NCBI GenBank assembly: GCA_964401925.1
Contig: CAYOAK010000004.1
Location: 1-41,004 of the forward strand
Length of the DNA stretch: 41,004 nt
Direction of reading: 5' to 3'
From: an uncultured Bdellovibrionales bacterium
Lineage (GTDB): Bacteria > Bdellovibrionota_C > UBA2361 > SZUA-149 > JADYYL01
In this document: positions 8,958 to 30,359 of the stretch, one piece after another
Numbering within the stretch: position 1 is the stretch's first letter
Layout: each line of letters opens with the position of its first letter
Translations under genes and position numbers: made by a program
Notes under the pieces: model-generated
What the model was told of the DNA's origin: nothing
The model's input: the letters and a program-made list of their open reading frames with translations, nothing else
Databases searched by the model: none

Positions 8958-9838
8958 GTCTGGAGGTAAAAAAAGCGGTTCGGCTCTCGCTGCTTGGCGC
9001 GGCGCTGAACGGTTCGCTCGCGTTGATCAAAGGCGGAGCCGGATGGTTTGGGCATTCCCACGCGCTGATGGCTGATGCGGTCGAATCACTTTCTGATGTG
9101 TTCTCTTCCCTTGTCGTTTGGGCAGGGATGAAGCTCTCGCTGAAGCCCCCGGATGAGAATCATCCCTACGGACACGGAAAGTTCGAGCCGATGGCGGCGA
9201 TCGTTGTGGCGCTGATTCTTTTCGGGGCGGCAGTTGGAATTCTTGTCGCAAGCATCCGGGAGATCATTGCTCCGTCGGCGACTCCCCATCTCTTCACTCT
9301 CCCTGTGTTGCTGTTCGTCATCGTGATCAAGTGGATTCTCTCACGGAAAGCCGAGCAGCTGTCCGGTGATATCGCCAGCCAAGCGTTGCGCGGAGATGCG
9401 CTGCATCATCAGAGCGATGCATTAACATCGCTTGCCGCGCTCATCGGTATTTCGGTGGCTGTGATTGGCGGGCCGGGTTTCGAACGAGCCGACGGATTCG
9501 CAGCGCTTTTCGCTTCCGGCGTCATCGTGGTGAGCTCGTTTCGGATCTTCGCTCCGGCTGTCCGGGAGCTTGCTGATGCGGCTCCGCGCTCGGATATCGG
9601 AGAGCGGGCGAAGGGTATTGCAGGAACAGTTTCCGGCGTTGCCGAACTGGAGAAATGCTTTGTGCGGAAGATGGGTCTCTTCTATTACATCGACCTTCAC
9701 GTGATCGTTGACGAGAATCTTACTGTGCGCGAAGGACATTCGATTGCCCATCGAGTCGAAGAAGCGATTCAGGCCGCGGTGCCGCAAGTCGCCGAGGTGT
9801 TGGTGCACATCGAACCGACTGGAGGGCCGGTCGGATGA
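8954..9838 (+). CDS. cation diffusion facilitator (CDF) family metal efflux transporter
   Basis: HSHALMADAVESLSDVFSSLVVW and HPYGHGKFEP are the CDF TM2 and loop signatures. A C-terminal cytoplasmic domain is present. ATGA overlap with mltA. Confidence 0.85.
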   Translation: MSLEVKKAVRLSLLGAALNGSLALIKGGAGWFGHSHALMADAVESLSDVFSSLVVWAGMKLSLKPPDENHPYGHGKFEPMAAIVVALILFGAAVGILVASIREIIAPSATPHLFTLPVLLFVIVIKWILSRKAEQLSGDIASQALRGDALHHQSDALTSLAALIGISVAVIGGPGFERADGFAALFASGVIVVSSFRIFAPAVRELADAAPRSDIGERAKGIAGTVSGVAELEKCFVRKMGLFYYIDLHVIVDENLTVREGHSIAHRVEEAIQAAVPQVAEVLVHIEPTGGPVG

Positions 9839-10896
9839 AGGAGTTGCCCGAGCATTACCCGGCACCGCCGATTGCCGAGGCGATACCTCCGACTGAGCGC
9901 GTGCTCGAGTTCCTGATTCAGGAGCGCGGGGAAGAGCCGGAGCTGCTTTTCTCACTCGCAAATGTCCTGCTTCGAAAAGGCAGGACAGTTGAGGCGCTAA
10001 AATTCTATCGATCGGCGCTGGAGAAAAGTCCGCATACGCCCCGCCTGCGAACGAATCTTGGGGTGGCGCTGATCCTGCTCGGTGAGCGGGAGGATGCCGA
10101 GCAGCAGTTTCGTCAGGCACTGCTTCAAGAGCCCGATCTGGAGCTTGCGCTGCTGCATCTTGGAACCGTGCTCGAGGAGCGAAAGGACTACGACGGCGCG
10201 CTGAAGCTGCTCGATCGATTCCTTCAGGCCCGATCTGAGCGACAGCCTGCACCCAAGCCGGCGCTCCTAGCGGGGAGATGCGCCGATGCTCTCGAGCGGC
10301 ATGAAGTGGCAAAAGGCTACTTCGAGATGGCCGCATCGGGCGGTATCGAAGAGGCGCTCGCCTGGCTGCTCGCACACGATGTAAAAGAGGGAGTGGCTGC
10401 ATTCGATAGAGGCGACCCAATTGAATGTGCGCGGATCCTTCACCGGAACTACGAGCGCGCTGCCGGGCTTTTCACCCGTGATCAGCGAGTTCAGGACACT
10501 GTGCGTGAGCTTTCGGCGAAAGCCGGCAAGGACGATCGGCTACTCGCCGCTCGATCAGAGTTACGTTCGGTTCCGGAGGCCGATAGACAGGGGCCTCTCT
10601 ATCGGCATCTTGTTGAGATCTTCATCAGTCTCGGTGTTGCCGCGGAGGTATTCGAAGAGTCCGGTGATCTCGAGGAGCAAGCGGCGCGCTGGAAAAAAGC
10701 TCTTGATGAGACAAAAAATTATCCCTACGGAAACTACCGGCATGCGATCATTACCGCCTACCAGGGAGATCTGAGGCACGCGCTCGACGAGCTCGATCTC
10801 TGCCGTTCAAAGCTCCCGGAAAAAAAGCAGCGCGTTCTCAAGCTGCAGCAGATGATGGATGCCCTGGGCGATCTCTCTACTGCGTTGGCGGAATAA
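9835..10896 (+). CDS. TPR repeat protein
   Basis: Repeated 34-residue helical motifs (LANVLLRKGRTVEALKFYRSALEKSP, LGVALILLGEREDAEQQFRQALLQEP, LGTVLEERKDYDGALKLLDRFL). ATGA overlap with the CDF gene. Confidence 0.7.
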   Translation: MKELPEHYPAPPIAEAIPPTERVLEFLIQERGEEPELLFSLANVLLRKGRTVEALKFYRSALEKSPHTPRLRTNLGVALILLGEREDAEQQFRQALLQEPDLELALLHLGTVLEERKDYDGALKLLDRFLQARSERQPAPKPALLAGRCADALERHEVAKGYFEMAASGGIEEALAWLLAHDVKEGVAAFDRGDPIECARILHRNYERAAGLFTRDQRVQDTVRELSAKAGKDDRLLAARSELRSVPEADRQGPLYRHLVEIFISLGVAAEVFEESGDLEEQAARWKKALDETKNYPYGNYRHAIITAYQGDLRHALDELDLCRSKLPEKKQRVLKLQQMMDALGDLSTALAE

Positions 10897-10917: not shown

Positions 10918-11895
10918 TTACGGCTGACGGCTCAGCAGAAAGCCCTCGACTCTGTTTACCTGGCCGGGCTCTCCCGATTGAGGTGGAACGAGGTGCCAGG
11001 GCCAGAACTCAGAGTTTTGGGAGTGATGGGCCGGCAGGAGGCTTTCGCCGGATAATTCGGCACGGAGGTCGAGATCCGAGAGAGCGGAGGAAACTTCGAT
11101 TGGCTCAATGCTTTTGTCGATCGCCTTCCACTGGAAAGGCTCGGCTTGCGGGGTGATTGGGGGCTGCAGATATGGATGCGCACTCTGGTAGTAGGCGTGC
11201 TCCGTGTCGGTGATGAGCACGATCTGATTGGCTCGTATCTCTTTGAGGAGCTCAAAATGGCCGCGCACGAGTTGAGCGCCGAAGGGGAGAAAGGCGGTTA
11301 ACCACTCCGCTTCTTTATGTTCGACTACGGCTTTGCCGAACTGCCGCCGCAGCTTCGCTTCATACAGATCGCGAAACGGCAGTGCGAGCTGGCTGAGGAT
11401 GCTCATTGAAATCACATCGCAGCCCTTCGGAAGGTTGAGTTCTTCTGGAACGAGATCGACCGTGCGTGGGAAATGAAGCGCTTCCTCCCAGGTTGAGAAT
11501 CTCTGCGGCCGCAGAAGATCGATGAAACGGCTCAACGAGCCGGTAAGGTCGAGAACCGTCGAGCGAATCTCGCACTTCGCATTTGGGAATTGATGAAAGC
11601 GGAGGCAACTCGGATCGGCATCGACGAGATGTATCCGCTTATAAAGCTCTGCGAGCTGCTCGATCGGCACATCATACAGCCGTCCCGCTCCAAGAATGAG
11701 CAGCGAATCGCTACCCGATGCCGGTCCGAGGGCACGCAGGACGAACCTCTTCGAGCGATCGAGGTGCGGCCGCCAATGCTCGCTGAAAGCTTGCGCGCGA
11801 GTCTCGATCCCGAATCCACCCCGGAGCAGTCCGCTCTCGCGCGCGATCGGATGTTTCAGAGCCAGGGTTATGTAGCGGAATGCGCTCAGTGCCAT
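10918..11895 (-). CDS. hypothetical protein with tentative class I SAM-methyltransferase-like motifs
   Basis: 325 aa. LLILGAGRL resembles motif I (hh-hGxG). RIHLVDADP resembles the acidic end of beta-2. CDVISMSILSQLA resembles motif IV. Its ATG shares nt 11895 with the stop of the upstream Thg1-like gene (TAATG). Confidence 0.55.
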   Translation of the reverse strand: MALSAFRYITLALKHPIARESGLLRGGFGIETRAQAFSEHWRPHLDRSKRFVLRALGPASGSDSLLILGAGRLYDVPIEQLAELYKRIHLVDADPSCLRFHQFPNAKCEIRSTVLDLTGSLSRFIDLLRPQRFSTWEEALHFPRTVDLVPEELNLPKGCDVISMSILSQLALPFRDLYEAKLRRQFGKAVVEHKEAEWLTAFLPFGAQLVRGHFELLKEIRANQIVLITDTEHAYYQSAHPYLQPPITPQAEPFQWKAIDKSIEPIEVSSALSDLDLRAELSGESLLPAHHSQNSEFWPWHLVPPQSGEPGQVNRVEGFLLSRQP

Positions 11896-12785
11896 TAGCG
11901 GGGCTTCGGTTTTTTGTCGTCTAATCTGAAAGCGCCTTTTCGCTGAACCGGCTGCAGCACCGGCCGGCCTGCCTGAGGTTGCGGCGGTGGGGAACTGGTG
12001 AAGCTCTTCGGCTGGTCCGGTTTGAGCACGAGGTTGGCTCCTTCGTCGACTGCGGGGACGGGCCGGAACGCCACGCGCTCAAGCAGTTGAACGTACTCGT
12101 CCTCGGTCACTCCGAGAGATTCGCTTCCCACGAGCTCGGTTCGGTCCCCCCACCAGATTCCGTATCCGTAGAGGTCGCCCATCTTCAGCTCCTCCTCGGG
12201 AAATCCAAGATCGATCAGAAGCGCCTTCCGCTCCTCTTCGGAGAGCTTCGACGTCCGATTGTCGATCTCTTTCGGATCCAGCCCTTGGCTCTGTAACCGG
12301 AGAATAATCTGTCTCGTGAGAAAATTTCTTGCCGAGACCTTCCGTTGCCACACAAAGTAATCAAACACATGCGACCTCGACGGGAGCTCGCTGAGCTTCG
12401 AATGAAACACCGCCCCATGGTTAAACGCCCGGTTAAAATGGGCCGTCGCGCAGCTGGAGAAAAACGAGAGTATCCGGGAACGTTTCCGTTGATTCACGCT
12501 CTCGATCGGATCGAGCAGCAGCGAGATCTCGTCCCCGTGGGTGTAGGAGTAGGCGACGCGGTAACCGCAGCTCATCAGCTCCTTCGCACTCGCGCGGAGC
12601 GCGCTGATGAATTCCGTATTGAACGGGTAGTCCGCCACCGTCCGCCAGCCGGAGCCGAAGCGGTGCGAGTCCACCCGCACGATGAGGTACAGATCGGGAA
12701 GAATCAGAGTATCGTTCGTGTTTTCAAAGCGGTCCATTAACCGCTGATACTCACCAATGCTCTTTGGTTGTCTCGAATCCTCCAC
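11895..12785 (-). CDS. Thg1-like protein (TLP), tRNA(His) guanylyltransferase family 3'-5' nucleotidyltransferase
   Basis: GTG start. LYLIVRVDSHRF matches WVVVRLDGRNF of Thg1. YSYTHGDEISLLL matches AYGQSDEYSFVF, which carries the metal carboxylates. FDYFVWQRKVSARNFL matches DYLSWRQADCHINNLY. There is an extra Pro/Lys-rich C-terminal tail of about 50 aa. Confidence 0.8.
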   Translation of the reverse strand: MEDSRQPKSIGEYQRLMDRFENTNDTLILPDLYLIVRVDSHRFGSGWRTVADYPFNTEFISALRASAKELMSCGYRVAYSYTHGDEISLLLDPIESVNQRKRSRILSFFSSCATAHFNRAFNHGAVFHSKLSELPSRSHVFDYFVWQRKVSARNFLTRQIILRLQSQGLDPKEIDNRTSKLSEEERKALLIDLGFPEEELKMGDLYGYGIWWGDRTELVGSESLGVTEDEYVQLLERVAFRPVPAVDEGANLVLKPDQPKSFTSSPPPQPQAGRPVLQPVQRKGAFRLDDKKPKPR

Positions 12786-12996
12786 GGCACCTCTCCGGCA
12801 AAAGGCTACATTCTGTATGCGCCAAAGTCAGATGATTTCACTCCCGCCGTGGCGATGCATTATAAATGGCGAAATCTCCTGAGAAAATGTACTTCTTGCG
12901 CTGCAACAGTATGGCCATGAAAACTCGCCCCCGTCTCCAGAAGGCAAGCGCCTGCCGGCTCTGTGCCGGAAATGAACGGCAGCGCTAAGCAAGACT

Positions 12997-15900
12997 ATGC
13001 GTGAGTCAGTTCGCAGAGCCTTTGAGGCGCTCGTCGGCGGGGATGCCGCCTCACGCGAGGAGGTGCCGCAAACTCCCGCCGTTAAGCTGCTCAGAATCAG
13101 GGAGCGCGCCTCCCGTCCTCAATCTCTCACCCGTGATGCGCTTTTCGAACATGCGAAGCACCTCGCCCAGGAACAGATCGCCGAGGTCTCCGGCCGAGGG
13201 AGCCGCGAACTCTATCAATCCTTTGCCTCTCACTGTGTTCGCATCGACCTCGCACACAGGCTGCTCTCTACTGCGGCACTCGATAGAGATCTCCTCACCC
13301 CGGGCGCCGAGTGGCTTTTAGACAACTACCACATCATTCAAGAGCAGATTGCGAGCATCCGCCGCGACTTTCCACGGGGTTACGACCGCACCCTTCCGAA
13401 GCTCCTTTCCGGGAGACATCGGGGTTATCCCCGCGTCTATGAGCTGGCACTGGAGTTAATCTCAAAGTCCGACTCGGTGGTCGATGGGAACCTGCTGACT
13501 TCGTTCATCAACGGCTACCAATCGATCTCCCAGCTGACCCTCGGCGAGCTTTGGGCAACTCCGATCATGCTCCGCTTCGCCCTTGTGGAGAACGTCAGTC
13601 ACCTCGCCGAGCGTTTCGTCGGAGTTCGCGAAGAGCGAAAGCTCGCGGAGAGCTTCATTGATGAGATCATCGGCGACGAATCGCGTGCCGGCACCGAGAT
13701 TCTCCTGGTCCTCGCGGGAAAGCTCAAAGCCGAGCCGGAACTGCTTTTTTCGAGCGCGCCTTATCTTATCCGCCGCCTCCGGGAGCGCGGACGGAAAGCG
13801 ACGATCACCCTGCAATGGCTTGAAGAGCGGCTGCGGGAAGATGGAGCGGAGCCGGAGGAGATTCTCCGAAACGAACAGTACGCGCTCGCTGCCGATCAGA
13901 TATCAATCGGCAATACCGTGACCTCCTTAAAGGCGATCGGCTTCATCGATTGGAAGTCGTGGGTCGAAGCGGTGAGTCTTGCCGAGCGCGCACTTCGCCG
14001 CGATCCGGGAAAGATCTACCCGCAGTGCGATTTCAAGACTCGCGACATCGCCCGTCATACCATTGAAAAGCTCGCCAAACGGGGCGATCTCCTCGAGAGC
14101 GCTGTCGCGGAGGGTGCCGTCAAGCTCGCTGACCGCGCCAACGCTCTGCCGGTTCCAACTGACGAAGCCGAGAGGATCCGCTGGACCAAGCGCTCGAACG
14201 TTACCTACTACTTGATTCGCGAAGGAATCTGGGAACTCGAGAAAGAACTCGGAATCGCACCGGGGATTCTCAACCACATCGCACGATCCCTTAAGCGGCA
14301 CGCTTTTTTGATCTACGCCTCCGTGATCATACTCGGAACGGTCTGCGCGGCCTCAGCGCTCCTTCGAGTACTGGCAGCCAGTCTGCCGGAACTTGGATTG
14401 CTGATGTTCTTCCTCGCGCTCATCCCCGCGAGCGAGCTGGTCACCAACATTGTGCAGTGGCTTGTCACTAGAATCATCCGTCCCGATCATCTTCCGAAGC
14501 TCGATTACCAGCGCGGCATTCCCCCCGAAGCAAGAACTGCGGTTGTTGTGCACTCCCTGTTCTCTGACTCGGATGCGGCTTCGGCGACGATCGAAGGACT
14601 TGAGGTGCGCTACCTCGCGAACCCCGATCCGAATGTTGTCTTCGGCGTGCTCGCGGATGTGCGCGATGCGACGGCCGAGACGCGGCCGGGCGATGAAGAG
14701 ATCATCGCCCTCGCCCGAAAAAAGATTAGCGGGCTCAACGAAAAACACGGCGAGCGCTTTTTTCTCCTGTTCCGCAAACGCAAGTTCAATCCGTCCGAAG
14801 GGAAGTGGATGGCCTGGGAGCGCAAGCGCGGGAAGCTCGAGCAATTTAATGAGCTCCTCCTCGATCGAACAAAAACCGCCGACTTCCTCTTCGAGGAGTC
14901 CGATCTCAATCTGCTGCATGATATTCGCTACGTCCTGACGCTCGACAACGACTCAACGCTTCCTCGCGGAGCTGTGCAGCGCCTCGTCGGAACGGGTGCG
15001 CATCCGTTGAACGCCCCCGTGATTGATTCGAAGACGAATCGGGTGGTCGAGGGTTACGGCATCATTCAGCCGAGAGTCGGCACGACACTCACAAGCGCGC
15101 ATGCCTCACGGTTCGCGCGAATGTTTTCCGGGCAAGCCGGACTTGATCCCTACAGCGAAACGGTTTCCGAGGTGCATCAAGATCTCTTCGGTGAGGGCTC
15201 CTTCGTCGGCAAAGGACTCTATTCCGTCGGGGCTTTTCATCAGGTGTTGCAGGGAAGGGTCCCGGAGAACTCGCTGCTCAGCCACGATCTCTTCGAAGGC
15301 AACTTCGCCCGGGCCGGACTCGCCACCGATATCGAGCTTTTTGACGACTATCCGTCGAAGTATCATGCGCACGCGCGGCGGCATCACCGTTGGGTCCGCG
15401 GCGACTGGCAGCTGGTTCCGTGGCTGCGCTCACGAATTCCCGCAGCGGCGGGGCAAAGCACTACGAACGTCATCTCCTCGCTCGGCCACTGGAAGATGAT
15501 GGACAACCTCCGGCGGAGCCTTGTGGCTCCCTCGATCTTCATCGCACTGGTTGTCGCCTGGCTGCTTCTCCCAAATCCGGCGCGAGAGACGCTCCTCGCG
15601 CTCCTCGTGATCGCGTTCCCTGTTTACGCAAATGTCGCTCAGGCGTTCATCATTCCGCCCAAGCGCACGAGCTCGCTCGGCAGCCATGTCCGGGGAATCG
15701 GCCGCGAAATGGCGGTGATGTCGCAACAGGCGGTGTTTACCCTGGCAGTCTTGCCGCATCAGGCGACCCTGATGTGCGACGCAATCTTTCGGACGCTCTA
15801 CAGGGTGTTCATCTCCAAGCGGCATCTACTCGAATGGGAGACCGCCTACTACGCGGATAAGCGCCTGGATGCGACTGCCTCAAGCTTCTTCCGCGAGATG

Positions 15901-18900
15901 CGCGTCGGTTTCCTCGTTACCGTCATTTTCACGATCGTCCTTTCATTGGTGCGGCCCGAAGTCGCACTGCGGGCGAGCCCGATTTTGCTGCTCTGGCTGA
16001 CGAGTCCTTGGCTCGCCTATCTTCTCAGCTCGCCGATTCCGGCGGCTCAGATGGAGCTCAATCATCCGCAGCGCGAGTACCTGTTTGGTATCGCGTGGCA
16101 CACGTGGAGATACTTCCGCGAGCTGGTGAATGAACAGAATCACTATCTCGTTCCGGACAATATTCAGCTGACGCCAAATCGCGTCGTCGCGAACCGGACG
16201 TCGCCGACAAATATATCGCTTTCTCTGCTCGGAGCAGTCAGTGCCTACGAGCTAGGGTTCTTTTCTTTGACGGATGTTGTCAAACGAGTGCGAGCGACGG
16301 TGGAAACGCTGCCGAAGCTCGAGCGGTTCCGCGGACACTTCCTCAACTGGTATGACTGTCTCAATCTGAATCCGCTCTATCCGCGGTATGTCTCCACAGT
16401 CGACAGCGGAAATTTTATCGGCAACCTGATTGCGCTTCGAGCGTTCTTTCAGAATTTCGGAGCGCTTCCGCTGGTCGGACCGGCCCATGCACAACATTCG
16501 TTGCGAGTCATTCAAGAGGCCAGGCTGACGCCCGCCGATCCATTGCATACGACCTCGATCGTCGAGCTCGTTCGCTCTGCTCTTCCACTGAAAGAGCGCT
16601 CCACGGGCGTTGTGGATGGGAAGTTGCGGCGGGATCTCGAGGATCTTTGCCGCCCTGTGGACTATCTGGGGTGGGTGGAGATCTTCGAAAGGATTGCGGC
16701 GGCTCATCCGCCTGAGATCGGCTCCCCGCTGGCTGCGGCGATGAATCAAACAGTTGCCGCGCTCCAGGAGCTGCCCACGGTCGATGCCATCGGGCGCGCG
16801 CTCATCTCGGCGAGAGTTTATCTGCACGCCCTCCCGGAAGATCTCTCGCTGTGGCAGGAACTCTCCGTTGCTCTCATCGCAGCAGAGACGGCACAGACGG
16901 ATCTGAGAAAGCACGCCGCCACGCTCGTCGAGTCACTCTCGACGATTATCACCGAGCATGATTTCACCTTCCTCTACGATTCAGATCGCGATCTCTTTGC
17001 AATCGGCTATCACGTCGACAACGCGCGGCGTGACGGCAGCTTCTACGATCTGCTCGCCTCTGAAGCCCGGCTTTCTGCGCTTGTGACGATCGCTCTTGGC
17101 CAAGCGCCGCTTAAACATTGGTTCGCACTCGGCCGCGCGCTCACGAACTCGGCGGGCGGCCGGCTGCTTCTTTCGTGGAGCGGCACAATGTTCGAGTACC
17201 TCATGCCGCTCGTTGTGACGCGCGATTACTCCGGCACACTGCTCTCCGAATCCTACAAAGCGGTCGTCCGCGCGCAGCGGATCTACGGTGAGCGGCGCGG
17301 TGTGCCCTGGGGCATATCCGAGTCGAGCTTCAGCGGCGTCGATTTCGAGAAAACCTATCAGTATCGCGCGTTCGGCGTCCCCGGCCTCGGATTGAAGCGG
17401 GGACTCGAAGACGACCTCGTTATCTCGCCATATTCCACCGCACTCGCGCTGATGGTTGCCTCTCGCGAATCGATCGAAAACTTTGAAGCGCTGGAGCAGG
17501 AAGGGGGCAGGGGCGAGTACGGGTTCTTCGAGGCGATTGACTACACCCCGGCGCGACTGGCTGTGAACGAGCGTAAGCACGTTGTGCAAAACTTCTTTGC
17601 CCATCATCAGGGGATGTCCCTCTGCTCTCTGGTGAATGTCCTCTGCGATTCGGCCATCCAGAAGCTCTTTCATTCGGATCCGATTATTCGCGCCACGGAG
17701 CTGCTCTTGCAGGAGCGCTTCCCCGATAGAGTTGCAACACTCGAAGCCCCTGTCACTCAACCCGCGGAAATTGAGCACGACGAAGAGAGCTCCTCCTCGG
17801 TCAATGCGACAGTGCTTGAGACGCCGCATACGGCGATACCGAGGACTCATCTGCTTTCGAACGGCCGCTACGCTGTGATGCTCGACAATGCGGGGAGCGG
17901 GTATAGCGCGTACGAGCGGGAGCTCTTTCTCACGCGTTGGCGCGAAGATCTCGTTTCGAATCAATCCGGCAGCTATCTCTATCTTCGAGATCGCAAGTCG
18001 AACTTCCTTTGGTCGAACACTTACCAGCCGACGTGTGTGGAGCCGGAGTCCTACGAAGTGCTCTACAGTTCTGACAAGGTCGAGTTCAAGCGGCGGGATC
18101 GGAACCTGTTCGTTCATACCGAGGTCACCGTATCTCCGGAGGACAATGTTGAGATCCGCCGGGTGTCGTTGATCAATCTCGCAGGAGAGAAGCGCACTAT
18201 CGAGGTGACGAGCTTCGGCGAAGTCGCACTGAACTCCTTTCGCGCCGATCAAGCGCACCCCGCGTTCTCGAAGATGTTCATACAGTCCGAGTTTCTTCCT
18301 GATTACGACTGTCTCGTATTCGCCCGGCGGCCGCGGTCTGTGCGCGAACAGCCGCAGTTCTTCTTCCACATGCTGACGATGAAAACAGTTTGGGAGCGGG
18401 TCGACTTTGACAGCTCCCGCTTCAGTTTCATCGGCAGGGGACGCTCGGTGGAGAACCCAGATGCGCTCGATGGTGCGCTGGCGCGTAATCAGGGATCGAT
18501 TCTAGATCCGATCTTCGCGCTCCGAACGGGCCTCGAGATCGACCCGAGCCATGTCGAGTCGTTGAACTTCATCTCCGGCTATGCGGCGAACCGGGAGGAG
18601 CTGATGCTCCTCATTCGCAGATATAAAGAGCTCCACCAGATCTCCCGCGCCTTTGAAATGGCCTGGAGTCAAGCGAGCGTCGAGCTTCGAAACGAGCAGA
18701 TGTCGGCAAAACTCTTCCCTGTCTTCCAACGGCTCGGAAATGCGCTGCTCTTCAATGTGACCCAATTGCGCGGGTCCGCAGAGGTCATTCAACGCAACAA
18801 GCTCGCGCAACAGAACCTCTGGCGCTTCGGAATCTCCGGCGATCTGCCGATGGTTGTCGTTCGCGTGACGGAGCCGAGCCATATCAAGCTGGTCCAAGAG

Positions 18901-21675
18901 CTGCTCGCCGCGCATTCGTATCTAAGAGTACGCGGACTTGCGTTCGACCTCGTGATTCTCAACGAGTATCCGGGAGGGTATCTCCAAACGCTTCACGAAG
19001 AGCTGGACTATACGATCCGGAACTCACACTCCGGCTGGCTCTTCGAGAAGAGCGGTGGAGTTTTCCTTCGCTCGCTGACTCAGATGAACGATGACGAACG
19101 TGATCTGCTGGCGAAGGTGGCGCGTGTTCTGCTGAATGGTGCCCAGGGCTCGCTTGCAACGCAGATTCGCTTCGAGGAGCGCTCGGCGGAGATTGTGCCG
19201 CGCAGGCGCCTCCGCGAGTCGAAGCTCGCAACCACCCGGCCGAAGCTCGAGTTTGATAACAGCTACGGCGGATTCATCGACGGGGGAAAGGGCTATCGAG
19301 TTGTTGTCGGCCGGACGATCCCGCCGCTCCCGTACGCGAACGTGATCGCGAATCCTGCATTCGGATTCCTCGTCACCGAATCGGGGGGCGGCTACACCTG
19401 GGCGGAGAATGCGCGGGAGAATCGCCTGACGCCTTGGTCCAACGATCCGGTTACCGATCCGGTGTCCGAGGCGATCTATATCCGCGACGCAGTGAGCGGC
19501 CAGTATTGGTCGGCCACACCGCTTCCGGCGTCGCATGGCGGTGAATATGTCGTCGAGCATCGAGCAGGAATTTCCCGGTTCAAGACCGAAAACGCCGGCG
19601 TCGAGAGTGTGTTGCAGATGTCGATCGCCAGCACAGAGCGGCTGAAGCTTGTCTCGGTGCTGATTACGAATCGGACGAAAGAGGTGAAGAGCCTCGAGCT
19701 TGTTTACTATGTCGAGTGCGTGCTCGGAGTCTTCCGTGAAGAGATGGCGCGCTATCTCAACACCGCCTTCGATCCGCTCTCGAAAGCGTTGATGGTTACG
19801 AACAACTATAATTCCGACTTTCCTGGACGAGTTGCGATCGTCGGCTCGAGCAAAGACCCTTCGAGCTACACCGCCAGCCGGGCAGAGTTCCTCGGGCGAA
19901 ATCGAAGCGGCAAGAATCCTCTCGCCCTCGATGCCGCTCTCGGAGGCGATCTTCGCCTCACGCGGAAGCTTGGAGCGGGCTTCGATCCTTGCGCGGCCTT
20001 GAAGGTGGATCTGAAGCTTGCCGCGGGCGAATCATCTGAGCTGCTCTTTTATCTGGGTGAATTCCCGACCGTCGAAACCGCGCGTACATGCGTCGCAAAG
20101 CTGCGCCAGAAGGGAGCGTTTGCGAAGGAATCCGAGCAGTTCCTCGGAAGCGTTCGCGAGTTGACGGAAGCGGTGAGCGTCGAGACACCCGAACGCACCT
20201 TCGATCTGATTATGAATGGCTGGCTGCCGAACCAGGTCGTGAGCTCGAGACTCTATGGCCGCACGGGCCTGTATCAGAGCGGCGGGGCGTTCGGCTTCCG
20301 TGACCAATTACAGGATGTCCTTGCACTCCTCTACTCAAGACCCCCGCTCGTTCGCGAGCAGCTGCTGCTTCACGCTTCGCGGCAGTTTCCCGAAGGCGAT
20401 GTGCAGCATTGGTGGCATCCGCCGAGTGGAAAGGGAGTGCGCACAAAAATCTCCGATGATTTCCTTTGGCTGCCTTTCGTTGCCTCACGTTATCGCGAGG
20501 CCACCGGAGATCAGAGCATTTTTGATGAAGTGGTGCACTTCCTCGATGGGCCGATGCTCGGTGAGCATGAGCATGAGGCGTATATCGTTCCAAGAGTTTC
20601 GGAACAGAAAGACACGTTTTATTCCCACTGCGTTCGGGCCCTCGATCACGGACTGCGGCTGGGCTCGCACGGCCTGCCTTTGATGGGTGTGGGCGATTGG
20701 AACGACGGAATGAACGAGGTCGGAAAAGAGGGCCGCGGTGAGAGCGTGTGGCTGGCCTGGTTCCTAGCGCTGACCTTGAAAGAATTCCTGCCGATCGTCG
20801 AGCAGCGCAGCCGAGAGAATGCCGGTGAAGCCGAGCGGCTTGAACGCTATCGCACTGCGGTCGAAAACTTGGTGAACGCGGTCGAAGAGCACGCCTGGGA
20901 TGGAGAATGGTATCGTCGTGCATACTTCGACGACGGGACACCGCTGGGCAGTGCAACCAACGACGAATGTCAGATCGATTCCTTGCCGCAGTCATGGAGT
21001 GTTCTCTCCGGGCTCGGACGGCCCGATCGCCAGCAGCAGTCGATGCAGGCAGTATACAGCCGGTTGGTCGATGAGCGCTTGAAGTTGATCAAACTCTTCG
21101 ATCCGCCGTTCGATAAAGGCTCGCTTCGTCCCGGATATATCAAAGGCTATCTGCCTGGCGTTCGTGAGAACGGCGGCCAATATACTCACGCCGCTGTTTG
21201 GGTGTTGATGGCTGCCGCGGAGCTTGGCGATGGTGAGCGCGCGTTTCGATATTTCCAGTACATCAATCCGGTTAGCCACACTTCTTCGAAGTCGGGGGCG
21301 GACCGCTACATGGGCGAGCCATATGTCCTCTGCGGCGATGTCTACGCCGCGCCGCCTTTCGAAGGACGTGCGGGCTGGAGCTGGTATACCGGCTCTGCCG
21401 GCTGGCTCTATCAGGCCGGTCTCTGCAACATCCTCGGTCTGCACTTGCATCCCGAAGGCTTCTCGCTGAAGCCATGTATTCCGGCACAGTGGGACAAATT
21501 CAAAATTGTCTATCGCCGGCAGGCTCAGGTGTTCACCATCAATGTGAGGAACCCGAAGAAGCTCTCTCGCGGTGCTGTACGGCTGCGAGCGGCTGGCAAA
21601 GATGTGCCGGACGGAATCGTGTGTTACTCCGATCTGCCGGCCGGGAACGTGCAAATCGATGTGGAGCTGGAATGA
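12997..21675 (+). CDS. ndvB: cyclic beta-1,2-glucan synthase (NdvB/ChvB/Cgs type; GT84 + cyclization domain + GH94)
   Basis: 2892-aa uninterrupted ORF. TM cluster near AFLIYASVIILGTVCAASALL. GT84 motifs LTLDNDSTLP (DND at 14944-14952) and HHRWVRGDWQL. Central alpha-barrel region YHVDNARRDGSFYDLLASEARL. GH94 motifs GVGDWNDGMN and RENGGQYTHAAVW. Confidence 0.9.
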   Translation: MRESVRRAFEALVGGDAASREEVPQTPAVKLLRIRERASRPQSLTRDALFEHAKHLAQEQIAEVSGRGSRELYQSFASHCVRIDLAHRLLSTAALDRDLLTPGAEWLLDNYHIIQEQIASIRRDFPRGYDRTLPKLLSGRHRGYPRVYELALELISKSDSVVDGNLLTSFINGYQSISQLTLGELWATPIMLRFALVENVSHLAERFVGVREERKLAESFIDEIIGDESRAGTEILLVLAGKLKAEPELLFSSAPYLIRRLRERGRKATITLQWLEERLREDGAEPEEILRNEQYALAADQISIGNTVTSLKAIGFIDWKSWVEAVSLAERALRRDPGKIYPQCDFKTRDIARHTIEKLAKRGDLLESAVAEGAVKLADRANALPVPTDEAERIRWTKRSNVTYYLIREGIWELEKELGIAPGILNHIARSLKRHAFLIYASVIILGTVCAASALLRVLAASLPELGLLMFFLALIPASELVTNIVQWLVTRIIRPDHLPKLDYQRGIPPEARTAVVVHSLFSDSDAASATIEGLEVRYLANPDPNVVFGVLADVRDATAETRPGDEEIIALARKKISGLNEKHGERFFLLFRKRKFNPSEGKWMAWERKRGKLEQFNELLLDRTKTADFLFEESDLNLLHDIRYVLTLDNDSTLPRGAVQRLVGTGAHPLNAPVIDSKTNRVVEGYGIIQPRVGTTLTSAHASRFARMFSGQAGLDPYSETVSEVHQDLFGEGSFVGKGLYSVGAFHQVLQGRVPENSLLSHDLFEGNFARAGLATDIELFDDYPSKYHAHARRHHRWVRGDWQLVPWLRSRIPAAAGQSTTNVISSLGHWKMMDNLRRSLVAPSIFIALVVAWLLLPNPARETLLALLVIAFPVYANVAQAFIIPPKRTSSLGSHVRGIGREMAVMSQQAVFTLAVLPHQATLMCDAIFRTLYRVFISKRHLLEWETAYYADKRLDATASSFFREMRVGFLVTVIFTIVLSLVRPEVALRASPILLLWLTSPWLAYLLSSPIPAAQMELNHPQREYLFGIAWHTWRYFRELVNEQNHYLVPDNIQLTPNRVVANRTSPTNISLSLLGAVSAYELGFFSLTDVVKRVRATVETLPKLERFRGHFLNWYDCLNLNPLYPRYVSTVDSGNFIGNLIALRAFFQNFGALPLVGPAHAQHSLRVIQEARLTPADPLHTTSIVELVRSALPLKERSTGVVDGKLRRDLEDLCRPVDYLGWVEIFERIAAAHPPEIGSPLAAAMNQTVAALQELPTVDAIGRALISARVYLHALPEDLSLWQELSVALIAAETAQTDLRKHAATLVESLSTIITEHDFTFLYDSDRDLFAIGYHVDNARRDGSFYDLLASEARLSALVTIALGQAPLKHWFALGRALTNSAGGRLLLSWSGTMFEYLMPLVVTRDYSGTLLSESYKAVVRAQRIYGERRGVPWGISESSFSGVDFEKTYQYRAFGVPGLGLKRGLEDDLVISPYSTALALMVASRESIENFEALEQEGGRGEYGFFEAIDYTPARLAVNERKHVVQNFFAHHQGMSLCSLVNVLCDSAIQKLFHSDPIIRATELLLQERFPDRVATLEAPVTQPAEIEHDEESSSSVNATVLETPHTAIPRTHLLSNGRYAVMLDNAGSGYSAYERELFLTRWREDLVSNQSGSYLYLRDRKSNFLWSNTYQPTCVEPESYEVLYSSDKVEFKRRDRNLFVHTEVTVSPEDNVEIRRVSLINLAGEKRTIEVTSFGEVALNSFRADQAHPAFSKMFIQSEFLPDYDCLVFARRPRSVREQPQFFFHMLTMKTVWERVDFDSSRFSFIGRGRSVENPDALDGALARNQGSILDPIFALRTGLEIDPSHVESLNFISGYAANREELMLLIRRYKELHQISRAFEMAWSQASVELRNEQMSAKLFPVFQRLGNALLFNVTQLRGSAEVIQRNKLAQQNLWRFGISGDLPMVVVRVTEPSHIKLVQELLAAHSYLRVRGLAFDLVILNEYPGGYLQTLHEELDYTIRNSHSGWLFEKSGGVFLRSLTQMNDDERDLLAKVARVLLNGAQGSLATQIRFEERSAEIVPRRRLRESKLATTRPKLEFDNSYGGFIDGGKGYRVVVGRTIPPLPYANVIANPAFGFLVTESGGGYTWAENARENRLTPWSNDPVTDPVSEAIYIRDAVSGQYWSATPLPASHGGEYVVEHRAGISRFKTENAGVESVLQMSIASTERLKLVSVLITNRTKEVKSLELVYYVECVLGVFREEMARYLNTAFDPLSKALMVTNNYNSDFPGRVAIVGSSKDPSSYTASRAEFLGRNRSGKNPLALDAALGGDLRLTRKLGAGFDPCAALKVDLKLAAGESSELLFYLGEFPTVETARTCVAKLRQKGAFAKESEQFLGSVRELTEAVSVETPERTFDLIMNGWLPNQVVSSRLYGRTGLYQSGGAFGFRDQLQDVLALLYSRPPLVREQLLLHASRQFPEGDVQHWWHPPSGKGVRTKISDDFLWLPFVASRYREATGDQSIFDEVVHFLDGPMLGEHEHEAYIVPRVSEQKDTFYSHCVRALDHGLRLGSHGLPLMGVGDWNDGMNEVGKEGRGESVWLAWFLALTLKEFLPIVEQRSRENAGEAERLERYRTAVENLVNAVEEHAWDGEWYRRAYFDDGTPLGSATNDECQIDSLPQSWSVLSGLGRPDRQQQSMQAVYSRLVDERLKLIKLFDPPFDKGSLRPGYIKGYLPGVRENGGQYTHAAVWVLMAAAELGDGERAFRYFQYINPVSHTSSKSGADRYMGEPYVLCGDVYAAPPFEGRAGWSWYTGSAGWLYQAGLCNILGLHLHPEGFSLKPCIPAQWDKFKIVYRRQAQVFTINVRNPKKLSRGAVRLRAAGKDVPDGIVCYSDLPAGNVQIDVELE

Positions 21676-23113: not shown

Positions 23114-23941
23114 ATGGCCTTTCCCATCTCACAACTTCTGGATCCTGCCGAGTTCGCCGGCCGCTGGCAGCGGGCCCGGGTCTCCGCGCTCCGGGCTTTC
23201 ATCCAAACAACGAATCCCGCAGAAGAGACACAATCTGTCGCGATGGTCTCCGAAGGAGATCGTGAGGCTCTGCTGCGAGCAGTGTTCGAAAACTCAAAGC
23301 GTCTCGGAGAGAGTGCCCGATGGCACTTCGGAGCGGAGTGGGAGGTGTCCGACTTTCATGAAGTTCTCTCTCAACGGGGCACTCCTTGCTTCACCGGAAA
23401 ATGGTCCTCGACCGACGGCGGCGTCGTTCTCGACAGGTGTGGATGCGATGCGGTGAAAAGCGGCGGAGCGTTCCTTTGTGACTATTTCAAAGAAGCCGCA
23501 GAGGGGTTGGTCCTCGGCCTGTCCGATGAGGTCCTCTATGTCCGCCATGAGAGCTGCGGAAACGGCTCGAGTTTCTGCCGCGATCTCTTCCTTCCGGCGA
23601 CAGAGAAGCAGATGGCTTTTGCTCCGGTTCCGGAGGAGCTCACAAGCGCCCTCCATGTGATCAACTCCGAGCTGTCCGATGCGGGAGTTCAGGTCGAGCT
23701 CTCGGGGATCGCCGAGGGAACCCTTTTTTATAAGTGGCAGGTGCAGGGAGCCCAGAGCTGCGAGGATAGAAGCGATCTTGTTCAGCAGACAATTCGCACT
23801 GCCTTGGGAGAGGAGCGGGCACAACTCAGAATTCGCGACATCTCTCCGCGTGCAATTTTCGGCCCCGGCCCGGACCCCGGTAAATCCGGTAGCTCCGAGT
23901 CACAAGAAGGAAAGAGAAAATGGAACACAATCGTAGCTTGA
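23114..23941 (+). CDS. hypothetical Cys-rich protein: V4R-like N-domain plus Nfu/NifU-C-like C-domain (tentative)
   Basis: The N-half has C92, C109, C111, C122, C149 and C156, ending in VRHESCGNGSSFCRDLF like the V4R motif E..C...G...C.F. The C-half AGVQVELSGIAEGTLFYKWQVQGAQSCEDRSDLVQQTIRTAL resembles Nfu DGGDVELV...V.V.L.GACGSCPSS..TL...IE..L but keeps only one Cys. Its 3' end overlaps the alpha subunit start by 22 nt. Confidence 0.55.
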   Translation: MAFPISQLLDPAEFAGRWQRARVSALRAFIQTTNPAEETQSVAMVSEGDREALLRAVFENSKRLGESARWHFGAEWEVSDFHEVLSQRGTPCFTGKWSSTDGGVVLDRCGCDAVKSGGAFLCDYFKEAAEGLVLGLSDEVLYVRHESCGNGSSFCRDLFLPATEKQMAFAPVPEELTSALHVINSELSDAGVQVELSGIAEGTLFYKWQVQGAQSCEDRSDLVQQTIRTALGEERAQLRIRDISPRAIFGPGPDPGKSGSSESQEGKRKWNTIVA

Positions 23942-26900: not shown

Positions 26901-27399
26901 GCCGTACCGGGGATGGAAAGAGGGGACCGAGGAATACAAAGTCGCACGGCTCCTTCTTCGCGCAAGATACTATCCGGGAACACCCCGGGGCGTCGCGCGC
27001 ACTTGGCACAACATGTTCTGTTCGACCTTCGGCAGCGTCAAAGGACATGAGTCGAACCCGGACGGGCTCGCGAAGAATCCGGAGACGAATTACCAGGCGA
27101 TGTATCGCTACGGAGGCCACCAAAGCGCAACACGCGCTTGGCTCCGTCCGACGCTGATGACCGAGTCGCTCCTCCACAAGGACATGTTCGGAGAGACGAT
27201 GGGCAAAGGCTTTGCGGCCGACATTCATTGTCCGGTCGGTGCGCCGCGCGAGGCGTTCGTGAAAATTACAAAGGCGGAGGACGGAGGAATAGGTGGAGTC
27301 GGACAATGGCGTCCAGTCACCTTAGGGCTGAGACCGACAACGGAGTCGGCATCGATGCTTGAATACCTCCAGGGCCGCTACGTGAAATTGAAAGGATAG
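23920..27399 (+). CDS. molybdopterin (bis-MGD) oxidoreductase alpha subunit, periplasmic type II DMSO reductase family (NxrA/NarG/EbdA-like)
   Basis: 1159 aa. Twin-arginine signal [25 protein letters not shown]0 motif C74-APN-D78-THN-C82...C122. [27 protein letters not shown] places Asp323 (24886-24888) at the Mo-ligand Asp position of NarG. Confidence 0.9.
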
Positions 27400-30228: not shown

Positions 30229-30232
30229 ATAA

Positions 30233-30358
30233 TTGGCTCCGAGCCATCTCCCGCTGAAATCGCACGCGCGAAAAGCGGGTATGGCCGCGGCTCTTGAATA
30301 GAGCTGCCGGGGCGGGAGCGGGGAACCGCGCCGCCTCCCAAAGTCGGAAAGGAGATCG
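30233..30358 (+). promoter_or_regulatory. Moco (molybdenum cofactor) riboswitch-like leader of moaA
   Basis: A 131-nt spacer with a 5' CUCCGAGCC and a 3' GCCGCCUCCCAAAGUCGGAAAGGAG, as I recall for the Moco RNA motif. Nested helices: CCCGCT/AGCGGG (30250-55/30274-79), GCGGCTCT/AGAGCTGC (30287-94/30300-07), and GGGCGG/CCGCCT enclosing GCGG-GGAA-CCGC. CUCC (30237-40) or CCUCCC (30334-39) can pair with the SD GGAG (30351-54). Confidence 0.55.
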
Positions 30359-30359
30359 G

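What the first reader, a model, noticed from the sequence alone, without database searches (positions are those of the whole stretch)
10918..12785. Bacterial Thg1-like 3'-5' polymerase translationally coupled to a methyltransferase-fold protein: candidate RNA 5'-end repair/modification module
Seen: a 296-aa Thg1-family protein carries both catalytic carboxylate motifs (VRVDSHRF, HGDEIS) and an extra Pro/Lys-rich tail. Its TAA shares a nucleotide with the ATG of a 325-aa ORF (TAATG at 11893-11897), and the two form an isolated minus-strand pair. The second ORF has class I SAM-methyltransferase-like motifs (LLILGAGRL, HLVDADP, CDVISMSILSQL). Established knowledge: bacterial Thg1-like proteins catalyse templated 3'-5' nucleotide addition and can repair 5'-truncated tRNAs in vitro, but their physiological substrates are largely unknown. 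The Pnkp/Hen1 system shows that bacteria pair RNA end-healing with protective methylation. Inference: this pair may be an undescribed two-component system that rebuilds RNA 5' ends and then marks them by methylation, or that modifies them in a cap-like manner.
Basis: partly seen in the sequence, partly recalled or inferred. Interest (0 to 1): 0.65.

Follow-up and report, generated by a model that had tools for sequence, protein, structure and literature searches.

The report
Thg1-like polymerase plus methyltransferase-fold operon
A real two-gene operon joins a divergent reverse (3'-5') RNA polymerase of the Thg1 family to an unannotated methyltransferase-fold enzyme, but the pairing is confined to one uncultured bacterial lineage, so a joint RNA-end repair-and-marking system is possible but not shown.

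Summary
Two minus-strand ORFs (TLP 11895-12785, 296 aa; ORF2 10918-11895, 325 aa) overlap in TAATG.

**TLP.** It is a genuine but divergent Thg1-family protein: Pfam PF04446 at 62.8 bits, D39/D85/E86 invariant, and the top 32 Foldseek hits are all Thg1/TLP. It carries a disordered tail that ends in a clade-conserved FR[L/I] motif.

**ORF2.** It has no Pfam, NCBIfam or PDB sequence match. A confident AlphaFold model (pLDDT 86) matches class I SAM methyltransferases, with NNMT-type enzymes on top. The SAM motifs are invariant. It belongs to a large unannotated family of 2,598 50%-identity clusters.

**The pairing is narrow.**
- ORF2 follows the TLP, usually with a stop/start overlap, for 5 of 7 informative close TLPs besides the window's own (56-63% identity; one of the five unverified).
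- None of 11 more distant TLP loci has ORF2 nearby.
- None of 25 other ORF2-family loci has a TLP within the 6-8 kb fetched on each side.
- The linked ORF2s are each other's best matches, which suggests a single juxtaposition.
- The unrelated GH94 giant gene is an even more constant neighbour.

**Verdict.** This is a lineage-specific co-expressed pair. Cooperation on one RNA 5' end (compare eukaryotic Thg1 then BCDIN3D) is an untested minority reading, at about 0.2.

The parts
11895..12785 (-). Gene for a divergent Thg1-like protein (TLP), 296 aa, GTG start
   Evidence: ORF. Pfam PF04446 Thg1 at 62.8 bits against a cut-off of 29.2. PHROG tRNA-His guanylyltransferase at 1.9e-14. AlphaFold model pLDDT 85.9. 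Foldseek top 32 PDB hits are all Thg1/TLP, TM up to 0.73.
12657..12680 (-). TLP motif VRVDSHRF (residues 36-43), carrying the first catalytic carboxylate D39
   Evidence: Sequence. R37, D39 and R42 are invariant in the 23-sequence clade alignment A4. The motif aligns to the IVRIDGAHF strand of B. thuringiensis TLP 4KGK.
12522..12539 (-). TLP motif HGDEIS (residues 83-88), carrying catalytic carboxylates D85 and E86
   Evidence: Sequence. H83, G84, D85, E86 and S88 are invariant in A4. The motif aligns to the SDEIS motif of 4KGK.
11898..12020 (-). Disordered Pro-rich, basic C-terminal tail of the TLP (residues 256-296), ending in the clade-conserved K-x-F-R-[L/I] motif (F286-R287-L288 = 11922-11930)
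   Evidence: pLDDT is about 50 from residue 260 onwards. R287 is invariant and the FR[LI] motif is conserved after a linker of variable length in A4. The tail has pI 11.05 against 5.76 for the core.
11893..11897 (-). TAATG stop/start overlap between TLP and ORF2 (translational coupling)
   Evidence: Sequence. Equivalent overlaps occur in relatives: TAGTG in L033, L050 and L051, and GTGA in L046. L005 has a 16-nt spacer instead.
10918..11895 (-). Gene for a 325-aa member of a large unannotated family with a class I SAM-dependent transferase fold (ORF2)
   Evidence: ORF. No Pfam, NCBIfam or PDB sequence hit. AlphaFold pLDDT 86.2, pTM 0.86. Foldseek PDB hits are class I methyltransferases at E about 4e-7. 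The family has 2,598 representatives.
11677..11703 (-). ORF2 motif I (LLILGAGRL, residues 65-73), the glycine-rich SAM loop after strand 1
   Evidence: G69 and G71 are invariant, and L68, A70, R72 and L73 are at least 90% conserved in 63 sequences. Strand E64-68 appears in the model.
11611..11631 (-). ORF2 motif II (HLVDADP, residues 89-95), with the acidic residue D92 at the end of strand 2
   Evidence: D92 is invariant and D94 is at least 90% conserved. Strand E87-92 appears in the model.
11386..11421 (-). ORF2 motif IV region (CDVISMSILSQL, residues 159-170) on strand 4
   Evidence: S163 and Q169 are invariant, and N165, L167 and S168 are at least 90% conserved. Strand E160-164 appears in the model.
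12786..12996 (.). 211-bp divergent intergenic region shared with the GH94 giant gene; presumed promoter region of the TLP-ORF2 operon
   Evidence: Position. No sigma-70-like site and no Rfam match were found. Its function is inferred only from position.

Best explanation
This is a lineage-restricted two-gene operon in an uncultured bacterium (its close sequence relatives come from freshwater, biofilter, biofilm and sludge metagenomes).

Gene 1 is a divergent Thg1-like 3'-5' nucleotidyltransferase with an intact three-carboxylate active site. It has a disordered basic tail that ends in a conserved FR[L/I] peptide. By homology it most likely activates the 5' phosphate of a tRNA-like RNA and adds Watson-Crick templated nucleotides to it, which amounts to 5'-end repair or maintenance.

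Gene 2 is translated by termination-reinitiation at a TAATG overlap. It belongs to a large, wholly unannotated family of enzymes with a class I SAM-dependent transferase fold. That family is normally encoded as a stand-alone gene.

The two genes were joined once in this lineage and are co-expressed. The ORF2 family's chemistry does not depend on a TLP. The most likely reading is therefore two independently acting enzymes sharing a transcript, not an obligate two-component system.

Shown: gene reality, family and fold assignments, conserved catalytic and SAM motifs, and the distribution of the pairing. Inferred: 3'-5' polymerase activity, SAM use, co-transcription and independence of function.
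For: TLP identity:
- Pfam PF04446 above its cut-off.
- D39, D85 and E86 invariant.
- Thg1 fold.

ORF2 identity:
- Confident model with a class I methyltransferase fold.
- Invariant G69, G71 and D92, plus R33, W41, H44, Q169, H213, D230, W298 and W300.
- 2,598 family representatives, all stand-alone, unnamed and without Pfam domains.

Distribution of the pairing:
- ORF2 lies directly downstream of the TLP in the window, L005, L033/L052, L051, L046 and L050. It probably does so in the P0018 contig too.
- It is absent downstream in L004 and L048/L049.
- None of 11 TLP loci at 49% identity or less has ORF2 within the up-to-6 kb of flank available.
- None of 25 ORF2-family loci, including 21 GTDB genomes of Bryobacterales, Bdellovibrionota, Planctomycetota and Oligoflexia, has a TLP within the 6-8 kb fetched on each side, where the contig reaches that far. 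No Thg1 domain appears among the 91 flanking proteins of these 25 loci.

Evolution:
- TLP-linked ORF2s are each other's best BLAST hits, consistent with a single origin.
- They keep nearly all family-invariant residues: R33 is K and D116 is E in some.
- The unrelated GH94 gene is next to the TLP in all 8 relatives with sequence in hand, at 60-68% identity over long alignments (46% over 69 residues on the short contig L033). Synteny at this depth is therefore not evidence of function.
- ORF2 diverges about twice as fast: 31-36% identity against 56-63% for the TLP.
Against: - A stop/start overlap is retained in 5 of 6 linked loci despite ORF2 divergence to about 32-38% identity. This is more than loose synteny and fits selection for stoichiometric co-expression.
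- Two hints place both families near tRNA and rRNA modification genes. A TrmB-like gene lies divergent to ORF2 homologues in four loci, at least three of them Bdellovibrionota or Bdellovibrionales. A tsaD-ksgA-TLP arrangement occurs in L035.
- Genome-wide co-occurrence of the two families could not be tested, so a functional link acting in trans in other lineages is not excluded.
- Independence of function is an inference from distribution, not a measurement.
Confidence: 0.55

Rival explanations
1. This is the first reader's idea: a true two-step module. The TLP rebuilds or extends an RNA 5' end, and ORF2 then methylates the new terminal nucleotide or its 5' phosphate. That would protect or mark the end. 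The eukaryotic parallel is Thg1 adding G-1 to tRNAHis, followed by BCDIN3D methylating its 5' monophosphate.
For: - Translationally coupled gene order is conserved for most close TLPs.
- Both active sites are intact.
- There is a eukaryotic precedent for Thg1 followed by a 5'-phosphate methyltransferase on the same tRNA end (PMC5435960, PMC7026607).
- A TrmB-like tRNA methyltransferase neighbours ORF2 homologues in four loci, at least three of them Bdellovibrionota or Bdellovibrionales.
Against: - The pairing appears to have arisen once.
- It was lost twice while the TLP was kept.
- It is absent from all other sampled loci of either family.
- ORF2 matches no Bin3, Hen1 or cap-methyltransferase model.
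- Its top structural neighbours are small-molecule N-methyltransferases.
- Family pI has a median of 6.8, so it is not typically basic.
- Published bacterial Thg1 neighbourhoods contain a polynucleotide kinase, a MACRO protein and an RNA ligase, not a methyltransferase (PMC2904730).
Confidence: 0.2
2. The ORF2 family is itself a tRNA or rRNA modification methyltransferase that works without the TLP. In this lineage it sits with the TLP because both serve RNA maturation. They share a pathway and a regulon but not a substrate end.
For: - ORF2 homologues lie head-to-head with TrmB-like genes in L009, L020, L023 and L030.
- A clade TLP lies in a tsaD-ksgA-TLP string in L035.
- Several invariant aromatic and basic residues (R33, W41, H44, W298, W300) could stack on and bind a nucleotide (inference).
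Against: - The TrmB association is confined to four loci, at least three of them Bdellovibrionota or Bdellovibrionales, and is divergent rather than operonic.
- The ksgA link is not conserved in L036.
- Neighbours of the 25 ORF2 loci are otherwise heterogeneous.
- No RNA-binding domain is fused in any of about 220 family members seen.
Confidence: 0.15
3. ORF2 is a small-molecule or polyamine-type alkyltransferase (methyl transfer from SAM, or aminopropyl transfer from decarboxylated SAM). Its metabolism is unrelated to RNA, and the operon is accidental.
For: - Top PDB fold matches are NNMT, INMT and other small-molecule methyltransferases.
- One of 63 family members hits Pfam BpsA_C at 3e-5.
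- The family profile touches branched-polyamine synthase 6J27 at E 0.68.
- S-adenosylmethionine synthetase is a neighbour in two loci.
Against: - TM-scores are only 0.35-0.53, so the match is to the generic fold.
- The BpsA signals are weak and rare.
- The near-invariant R72 in the glycine loop would suit the carboxylate of SAM rather than decarboxylated SAM (inference only).
- This reading overlaps with the best explanation and differs only in naming a substrate class.
Confidence: 0.1

Closest known systems
Bacterial and archaeal Thg1-like proteins (e.g. Bacillus thuringiensis TLP 4KGK/4KGM, Methanosarcina TLP 5AXK-5AXN)
   Same: - Pfam Thg1 domain, palm fold and three catalytic carboxylates.
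- It lacks the eukaryote-type HINNLYN anticodon-reading motif, having WQRKVSARNFL at that place (the motif itself is from my own knowledge). It is therefore TLP-type, not Thg1-type.
   Different: - Only about 20% identity, and phmmer E about 1e-6, to any solved TLP or Thg1.
- No Pfam Thg1C hit.
- It has an extra disordered Pro-rich tail with a conserved C-terminal FR[L/I] motif that the solved TLPs (210-250 residues) lack.
- Activity is untested.
Eukaryotic Thg1 then BCDIN3D (5'-monophosphate methylation of tRNAHis)
   Same: A Thg1-family enzyme and a class I SAM methyltransferase act in turn on one RNA 5' end (PMC5435960, PMC7026607).
   Different: - ORF2 matches no Bin3/BCDIN3D model and no PDB sequence.
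- No evidence shows that ORF2 binds RNA.
- The bacterial genes are physically linked only in one lineage.
Bacterial Pnkp/Hen1 RNA repair system
   Same: The concept only: an RNA end-processing enzyme encoded next to a methyltransferase.
   Different: - There is no kinase, phosphatase or ligase module in the eleven neighbouring window genes examined.
- There is no Hen1 match for ORF2.
- Hen1 marks the 3'-terminal 2'-OH at a ligation junction, whereas a TLP works on 5' ends (own knowledge; PMC4411300 for the system).
Thg1 - polynucleotide kinase - MACRO - RNA ligase neighbourhoods (Anantharaman, Iyer and Aravind 2010)
   Same: A bacterial Thg1-family gene in a conserved operon, read as RNA repair (PMC2904730).
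   Different: None of those partners is present here. A methyltransferase partner is not among the associations that paper reports.
NNMT/INMT/PNMT-type small-molecule N-methyltransferases (best structural neighbours of ORF2)
   Same: Class I Rossmann-like methyltransferase core preceded by an N-terminal helical lid.
   Different: - 10-14% identity and TM 0.35-0.53.
- No Pfam NNMT_PNMT_TEMT hit.
- ORF2 has its own invariant residues (R33, W41, H44, Q169, H213, D230, W298, W300).

Membership tests
Thg1/TLP superfamily (Pfam PF04446) | Significant match to the Thg1 catalytic-domain profile | tested here: met
   62.8 bits against a gathering cut-off of 29.2, residues 17-125. PHROG tRNA-His guanylyltransferase at 1.9e-14.
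Thg1/TLP superfamily (Pfam PF04446) | Three metal-binding carboxylates (D on strand 1; the D-E pair of the xDE motif) | tested here: met
   D39, D85 and E86 are invariant in 23 clade members. They align to the RIDG and SDEIS motifs of 4KGK.
Thg1/TLP superfamily (Pfam PF04446) | Thg1 three-dimensional fold, including the C-terminal helical part | tested here: met
   Model pLDDT 85.9. The top 32 Foldseek PDB hits are all Thg1/TLP, with 184-262 alignment columns and TM (target) up to 0.73. The Pfam Thg1C sequence model does not hit.
Thg1/TLP superfamily (Pfam PF04446) | 3'-5' nucleotide addition activity | not testable with these tools
   Needs an enzyme assay.
Bona fide tRNAHis guanylyltransferase (eukaryote-type Thg1) | HINNLYN-type anticodon recognition motif | tested here: not met
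   The corresponding position reads YFVWQRKVSARNFL in the window and WQRK..RN in the clade. The motif definition is from my own knowledge.
Class I SAM-dependent methyltransferases | Rossmann-like seven-stranded fold | tested here: met
   Model pLDDT 86.2, pTM 0.86, with seven core strands in the expected order. 157 PDB matches at E<=1e-3, and all of the top 50 are class I methyltransferases. The viral library also returns methyltransferases.
Class I SAM-dependent methyltransferases | Glycine-rich motif I and an acidic residue at the end of strand 2 | tested here: met
   G69, G71 and D92 are invariant in 63 sequences and are kept in all TLP-linked copies.
Class I SAM-dependent methyltransferases | Match to a curated methyltransferase sequence model | tested here: not met
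   No Pfam or NCBIfam hit for ORF2. Of 63 family members, one hits Methyltransf_31 at 0.043 and one hits BpsA_C at 3e-5.
Class I SAM-dependent methyltransferases | SAM binding and methyl transfer | not testable with these tools
   Needs biochemistry. Aminopropyl transfer from decarboxylated SAM is not excluded.
Pnkp/Hen1 RNA repair system | Hen1-type methyltransferase next to a kinase-phosphatase-ligase protein | tested here: not met
   ORF2 has no Hen1 match. The neighbours are TPR, CDF, MltA and GH94 genes and similar.
Bin3/BCDIN3D 5'-phosphate methyltransferases | Match to the Bin3 domain or to the BCDIN3D/MePCE structures | tested here: not met
   No Pfam hit, no PDB sequence hit, and none among the top 50 fold matches.
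   Adjacency occurs only for close TLPs at 56% identity or more. It is 0 of 11 for distant TLP loci and 0 of 25 for other ORF2 loci.
Known anti-phage defence systems (PADLOC) | Match to a defence-system protein model | tested here: not met
   No hit for either protein.

The most novel reading that the evidence does not exclude
In this lineage the TLP and ORF2 form a bacterial counterpart of the eukaryotic Thg1-then-BCDIN3D pathway. The TLP extends or repairs the 5' end of a tRNA-like RNA. The co-translated ORF2 methylates the new 5' terminus (phosphate, ribose or base), giving a cap-like protective mark. ORF2 may be recruited through the TLP's conserved FR[L/I] tail. The wider ORF2 family would then be a new class of RNA-end methyltransferases.
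Probability: 0.13. Interest if true: 0.8.

Novelty: new variant of a known kind. Interest (0 to 1): 0.36.

Why it matters
The physiological substrates of bacterial Thg1-like proteins are still unknown (PMC3061083, PMC6471195). A stably co-translated partner gives a concrete, cheap experiment: test whether ORF2 methylates RNA ends made by the TLP.

Two further results stand on their own. First, ORF2 exposes a large methyltransferase-fold family (about 2,600 50%-identity clusters) with no Pfam or NCBIfam model and no annotation. Second, this TLP clade carries a conserved C-terminal docking-like peptide. Both are useful annotation targets.

If the functional link is real, it would be the first bacterial 5'-end repair-plus-marking pathway. 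If not, this is an ordinary lineage-specific operon.

Tried and rejected
- **Sequence-level naming of ORF2.** Pfam, NCBIfam, PADLOC and PHROGs scans, phmmer against PDB, and profiles A1 and A2 against PDB gave nothing significant.
- **Genome scans with the large ORF2 alignments.** A 5-sequence alignment worked.
- **A conserved partner for the ORF2 family.** Clustering and a Pfam census of 91 neighbours in 25 loci found none. Only one lineage showed TrmB-like synteny.
- **A recurring link to Cas10- or GGDEF-type palm enzymes.** This was prompted by L001. It was a single case and was rejected.
- **A second methyltransferase downstream of distant TLPs.** The L035 485-aa Methyltransf_11 protein is unrelated to ORF2 (hhalign probability 0.1). 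It sits with glycosyltransferases.
- **pI as a proxy for RNA binding.** Undecided, with a family median of 6.8.
- **RNA elements or promoters in the operon leader.** None found.
- **tRNAHis genes near TLPs, to read the -1 position.** None found.
- **Transcript evidence.** The three metatranscriptome runs hold no matching contigs.
- **Taxonomy of the window.** The clusters carry no names.
Full report
**1. Observation**

The minus strand reads CCCCGCTAATGGCACTG, so the TAA stop and the ATG start share base 11895. All five quoted motifs are present. The pair lies between plus-strand genes: a TPR protein at 9835-10896 and a 2,892-aa GH94-type giant at 12997-21675.

The rest of the window looks like ordinary chromosome: a UvrD-like helicase, an MFS transporter, an aminotransferase, MltA, a CDF transporter, a HAD hydrolase and a molybdopterin/4Fe-4S oxidoreductase cluster. 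No tRNA gene is present. Neither protein matches a defence-system model.

**2. The first gene is a divergent Thg1-like protein**

- It scores 62.8 bits on Pfam PF04446 against a cut-off of 29.2. It does not hit Thg1C.
- Against solved structures it reaches only E about 2e-6, to B. thuringiensis TLP (4KGK) and Candida Thg1 (3WBZ).
- An alignment of 23 clade members shows D39, D85 and E86 invariant. These are the three carboxylates of the VRVD and HGDE motifs. R37, R42, H83, W146, Q147, R153 and N154 are invariant as well.
- An AlphaFold model built on that alignment has pLDDT 85.9, and residues 1-255 are ordered.
- Its 32 best PDB fold matches are all Thg1 or TLP structures, with TM (target) up to 0.73. 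GGDEF and Cas10 palm domains follow far behind.
- Where eukaryotic Thg1 has the HINNLYN anticodon-reading motif (my own knowledge), the clade has WQRK..RN. It is therefore TLP-type.
- Residues 256-296 are disordered, Pro-rich and basic (pI 11.05 against 5.76 for the core).
- In every clade member a linker of variable length ends in K-x-F-R-[L/I], with R287 invariant. This looks like a docking peptide. Its partner is unknown.
- Only 37 relatives were found by the word-indexed search of 5.8 billion proteins.

**3. The second gene has a class I SAM-transferase fold and belongs to a large unannotated family**

- No Pfam, NCBIfam, PADLOC or PHROG model and no PDB sequence matches it.
- The word-indexed search found 9 relatives. 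An exhaustive HMMER profile search found 2,598 representatives at E<=1e-3 and 524 at E<=1e-30.
- All members seen are stand-alone proteins of 229-428 aa, named 'hypothetical' or nothing, with no Pfam domain.
- In 63 sequences the invariant residues are R33, W41, H44, G69, G71, D75, D92, S163, Q169, H213, D230, W298, W300 and P304.
- The AlphaFold model is confident (pLDDT 86.2, pTM 0.86). It shows an N-terminal four-helix lid followed by the strand order expected for a class I methyltransferase.
- Foldseek finds 157 PDB matches at E<=1e-3. The top 50 are all class I methyltransferases, led by nicotinamide and indolethylamine N-methyltransferases, CyaF and 3GGD, at E about 4e-7 and TM 0.35-0.53.
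- The viral library gives generic methyltransferases, including cap N7 enzymes, at weaker scores.
- The glycine loop (G69, G71) and the strand-2 acidic residue (D92) fit SAM binding.
- There is a weak, rare signal to branched-polyamine synthase BpsA: one of 63 members at 3e-5, and the family profile against 6J27 at E 0.68. Aminopropyl transfer therefore cannot be formally excluded.
- The 'methyltransferase fold' claim stands. 'RNA methyltransferase' is not shown.

**4. How far the pairing is conserved**

Among close TLP relatives (56-63% identity), an ORF2 homologue lies directly downstream in these loci:

| Locus | TLP | Junction | Notes |
|---|---|---|---|
| L005 | P0012 | 16-nt gap | ORF2 36% identical |
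| L033 = L052 | P0019 | TAGTG | |
| L051 | P0019 | TAGTG | |
| L046 | P0013 | GTGA | ORF2 34% identical, E 2e-53 |
| L050 | P0020 | TAGTG | |
| P0018 contig | P0018 | start on the TLP stop | 304-aa gene; no DNA available, unverified |

ORF2 is absent downstream in L004 (P0011) and in L048/L049 (P0016). A six-frame profile search finds no ORF2-like segment there. L047 ends just after the TLP (72 nt remain).

In 11 metagenome loci with TLPs at 33-49% identity, no ORF2 homologue lies within the flanks available (up to 6 kb). Conversely, no TLP lies within the 6-8 kb fetched on each side of 25 other ORF2-family loci. These comprise 21 GTDB genomes of Bryobacterales, Bdellovibrionota, Planctomycetota and Oligoflexia, plus four metagenome contexts. 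No Thg1 domain appears among 91 flanking proteins.

The TLP-linked ORF2s are each other's best BLAST hits, which indicates one juxtaposition event. They keep nearly all family-invariant residues; R33 is K and D116 is E in some.

As a calibration, the functionally unrelated GH94 gene is divergent from the TLP in all eight relatives with sequence in hand, at 60-68% identity over long alignments and 46% over the 69 residues available on the short contig L033. ORF2 is only 31-36% identical. Synteny at this depth is therefore expected from descent alone, and ORF2 is the fastest-evolving and least constant member of the block. What goes beyond plain synteny is the stop/start overlap, retained in five of six linked loci.

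**5. Other context**

- Published neighbourhood analysis of bacterial Thg1 genes reports polynucleotide kinase, MACRO and RNA ligase partners, not methyltransferases (PMC2904730). None of these lies near the window's TLP.
- In L035 a clade TLP follows tsaD and ksgA, with the ksgA stop abutting the TLP start. This is not conserved in L036.
- ORF2 homologues in four loci, at least three of them Bdellovibrionota or Bdellovibrionales, lie head-to-head with a TrmB-like gene.
- These are weak hints that both families live among RNA-modification genes.
- A Methyltransf_11 protein downstream of some distant TLPs is unrelated to ORF2 and belongs with glycosyltransferases.

**6. Mechanism and rivals**

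The best-supported reading (about 0.55) is a lineage-specific operon of two independently acting enzymes.
- The TLP most likely does what characterised bacterial TLPs do in vitro. It activates a 5' phosphate and adds templated nucleotides to 5'-truncated tRNA-like substrates (PMC3061083, PMC6471195). This is an inference from homology.
- ORF2 is a SAM-dependent transferase whose family normally works without a TLP. It is co-translated here through termination-reinitiation at TAATG. This is an inference from the sequence.

It has a real precedent: eukaryotic Thg1 adds G-1 to tRNAHis, and BCDIN3D then methylates its 5' monophosphate (PMC5435960, PMC7026607). However, ORF2 shows no Bin3, Hen1 or cap-enzyme relationship, and the distribution argues against an obligate system.

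Two further readings remain. ORF2 may be an RNA-modification enzyme in the same pathway but not acting on the same end (about 0.15). Or it may be a small-molecule or polyamine transferase (about 0.1).

**7. Novelty and verdict**

Known kinds of parts appear here in new variants:
- a divergent TLP clade with a conserved tail peptide;
- a large methyltransferase-fold family with no model in Pfam or NCBIfam;
- an operon association not among those previously reported.

The association is narrow and its functional meaning is untested. Interest is moderate (0.36). It offers a cheap, direct experiment on the open question of bacterial TLP function, but present evidence favours an ordinary lineage-specific operon.

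**8. Dead ends**

- No promoter-like or Rfam element lies in the 211-bp leader.
- No tRNAHis gene lies near any TLP locus.
- No metatranscriptome contigs cover the region.
- No taxon name could be recovered for the window. Related DNA comes from freshwater, biofilter, biofilm and sludge metagenomes.
- Genome-wide co-occurrence and complex prediction could not be run.

Noticed in passing
window 11898-12020 (TLP residues 256-296); alignment A4: Every member of this TLP clade has a disordered Pro-rich linker of variable length. It ends in a conserved basic C-terminal peptide, K-x-F-R-[L/I] (window RKGAFRLDDKKPKPR, R287 invariant). It looks like a docking motif with an unknown partner. It is present whether or not ORF2 is adjacent.
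   Followed up: partly
window 12997-21675 (+): A 2,892-aa GH94/glycoamylase-type giant protein, resembling a cyclic beta-1,2-glucan synthase or phosphorylase. It is divergent from the TLP in all eight close relatives with sequence in hand (60-68% identity over long alignments), so it is a more constant neighbour than ORF2.
   Followed up: partly
window 30225-30370 (+): A Moco (molybdenum cofactor) riboswitch, Rfam RF01055, at 58.5 bits against a gathering score of 36. It lies within a cluster that includes a molybdopterin oxidoreductase (23920-27399) and a 4Fe-4S protein (27412-28542).
   Followed up: no
ORF2 family as a whole (alignment A2): About 2,600 50%-identity clusters of stand-alone 230-430-aa proteins with a class I methyltransferase fold. 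They share a distinctive invariant set (R33, W41, H44, D75, Q169, H213, D230, W298, W300) and have no Pfam or NCBIfam model or name. The family was seen in Bryobacterales, Bdellovibrionota, Planctomycetota and Oligoflexia MAGs.
   Followed up: partly
L009 7256-7939, L020 7225-7935, L030 6300-6980, L023 4523-5332: In four loci (at least three of them Bdellovibrionota or Bdellovibrionales), ORF2-family genes lie head-to-head with, or near, a TrmB-like (PF02390) tRNA methyltransferase gene. S-adenosylmethionine synthetase lies within a few kb in two loci.
   Followed up: partly
L001 1-1079 (-): One ORF2 homologue (P0002) lies divergent from a truncated Cas10/Csm1-like palm-domain gene and upstream of an ECF sigma/anti-sigma pair. 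This Cas10 adjacency did not recur in the other loci.
   Followed up: yes
L035 4135-6873: A tsaD - ksgA (RrnaAD) - TLP string, with the ksgA stop abutting the TLP start. It occurs in one distant clade member (43% identity to the window TLP) and is not conserved in L036.
   Followed up: partly
L040 8257-8332, L043 8387-8462, L045 2406-2479: A tRNA-Arg(TCT) gene lies about 1.3-1.7 kb downstream of the TLP, on the opposite strand, in three distant TLP loci. This is probably lineage synteny.
   Followed up: no
window 12738-12785: A public gene call for the same TLP (P0010, 280 aa) starts 16 codons downstream of the GTG used here. Clade conservation of residues 8-16 (KSIGEYQRL) and a GGAGAGG six bases upstream of the GTG favour the longer form.
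   Followed up: yes
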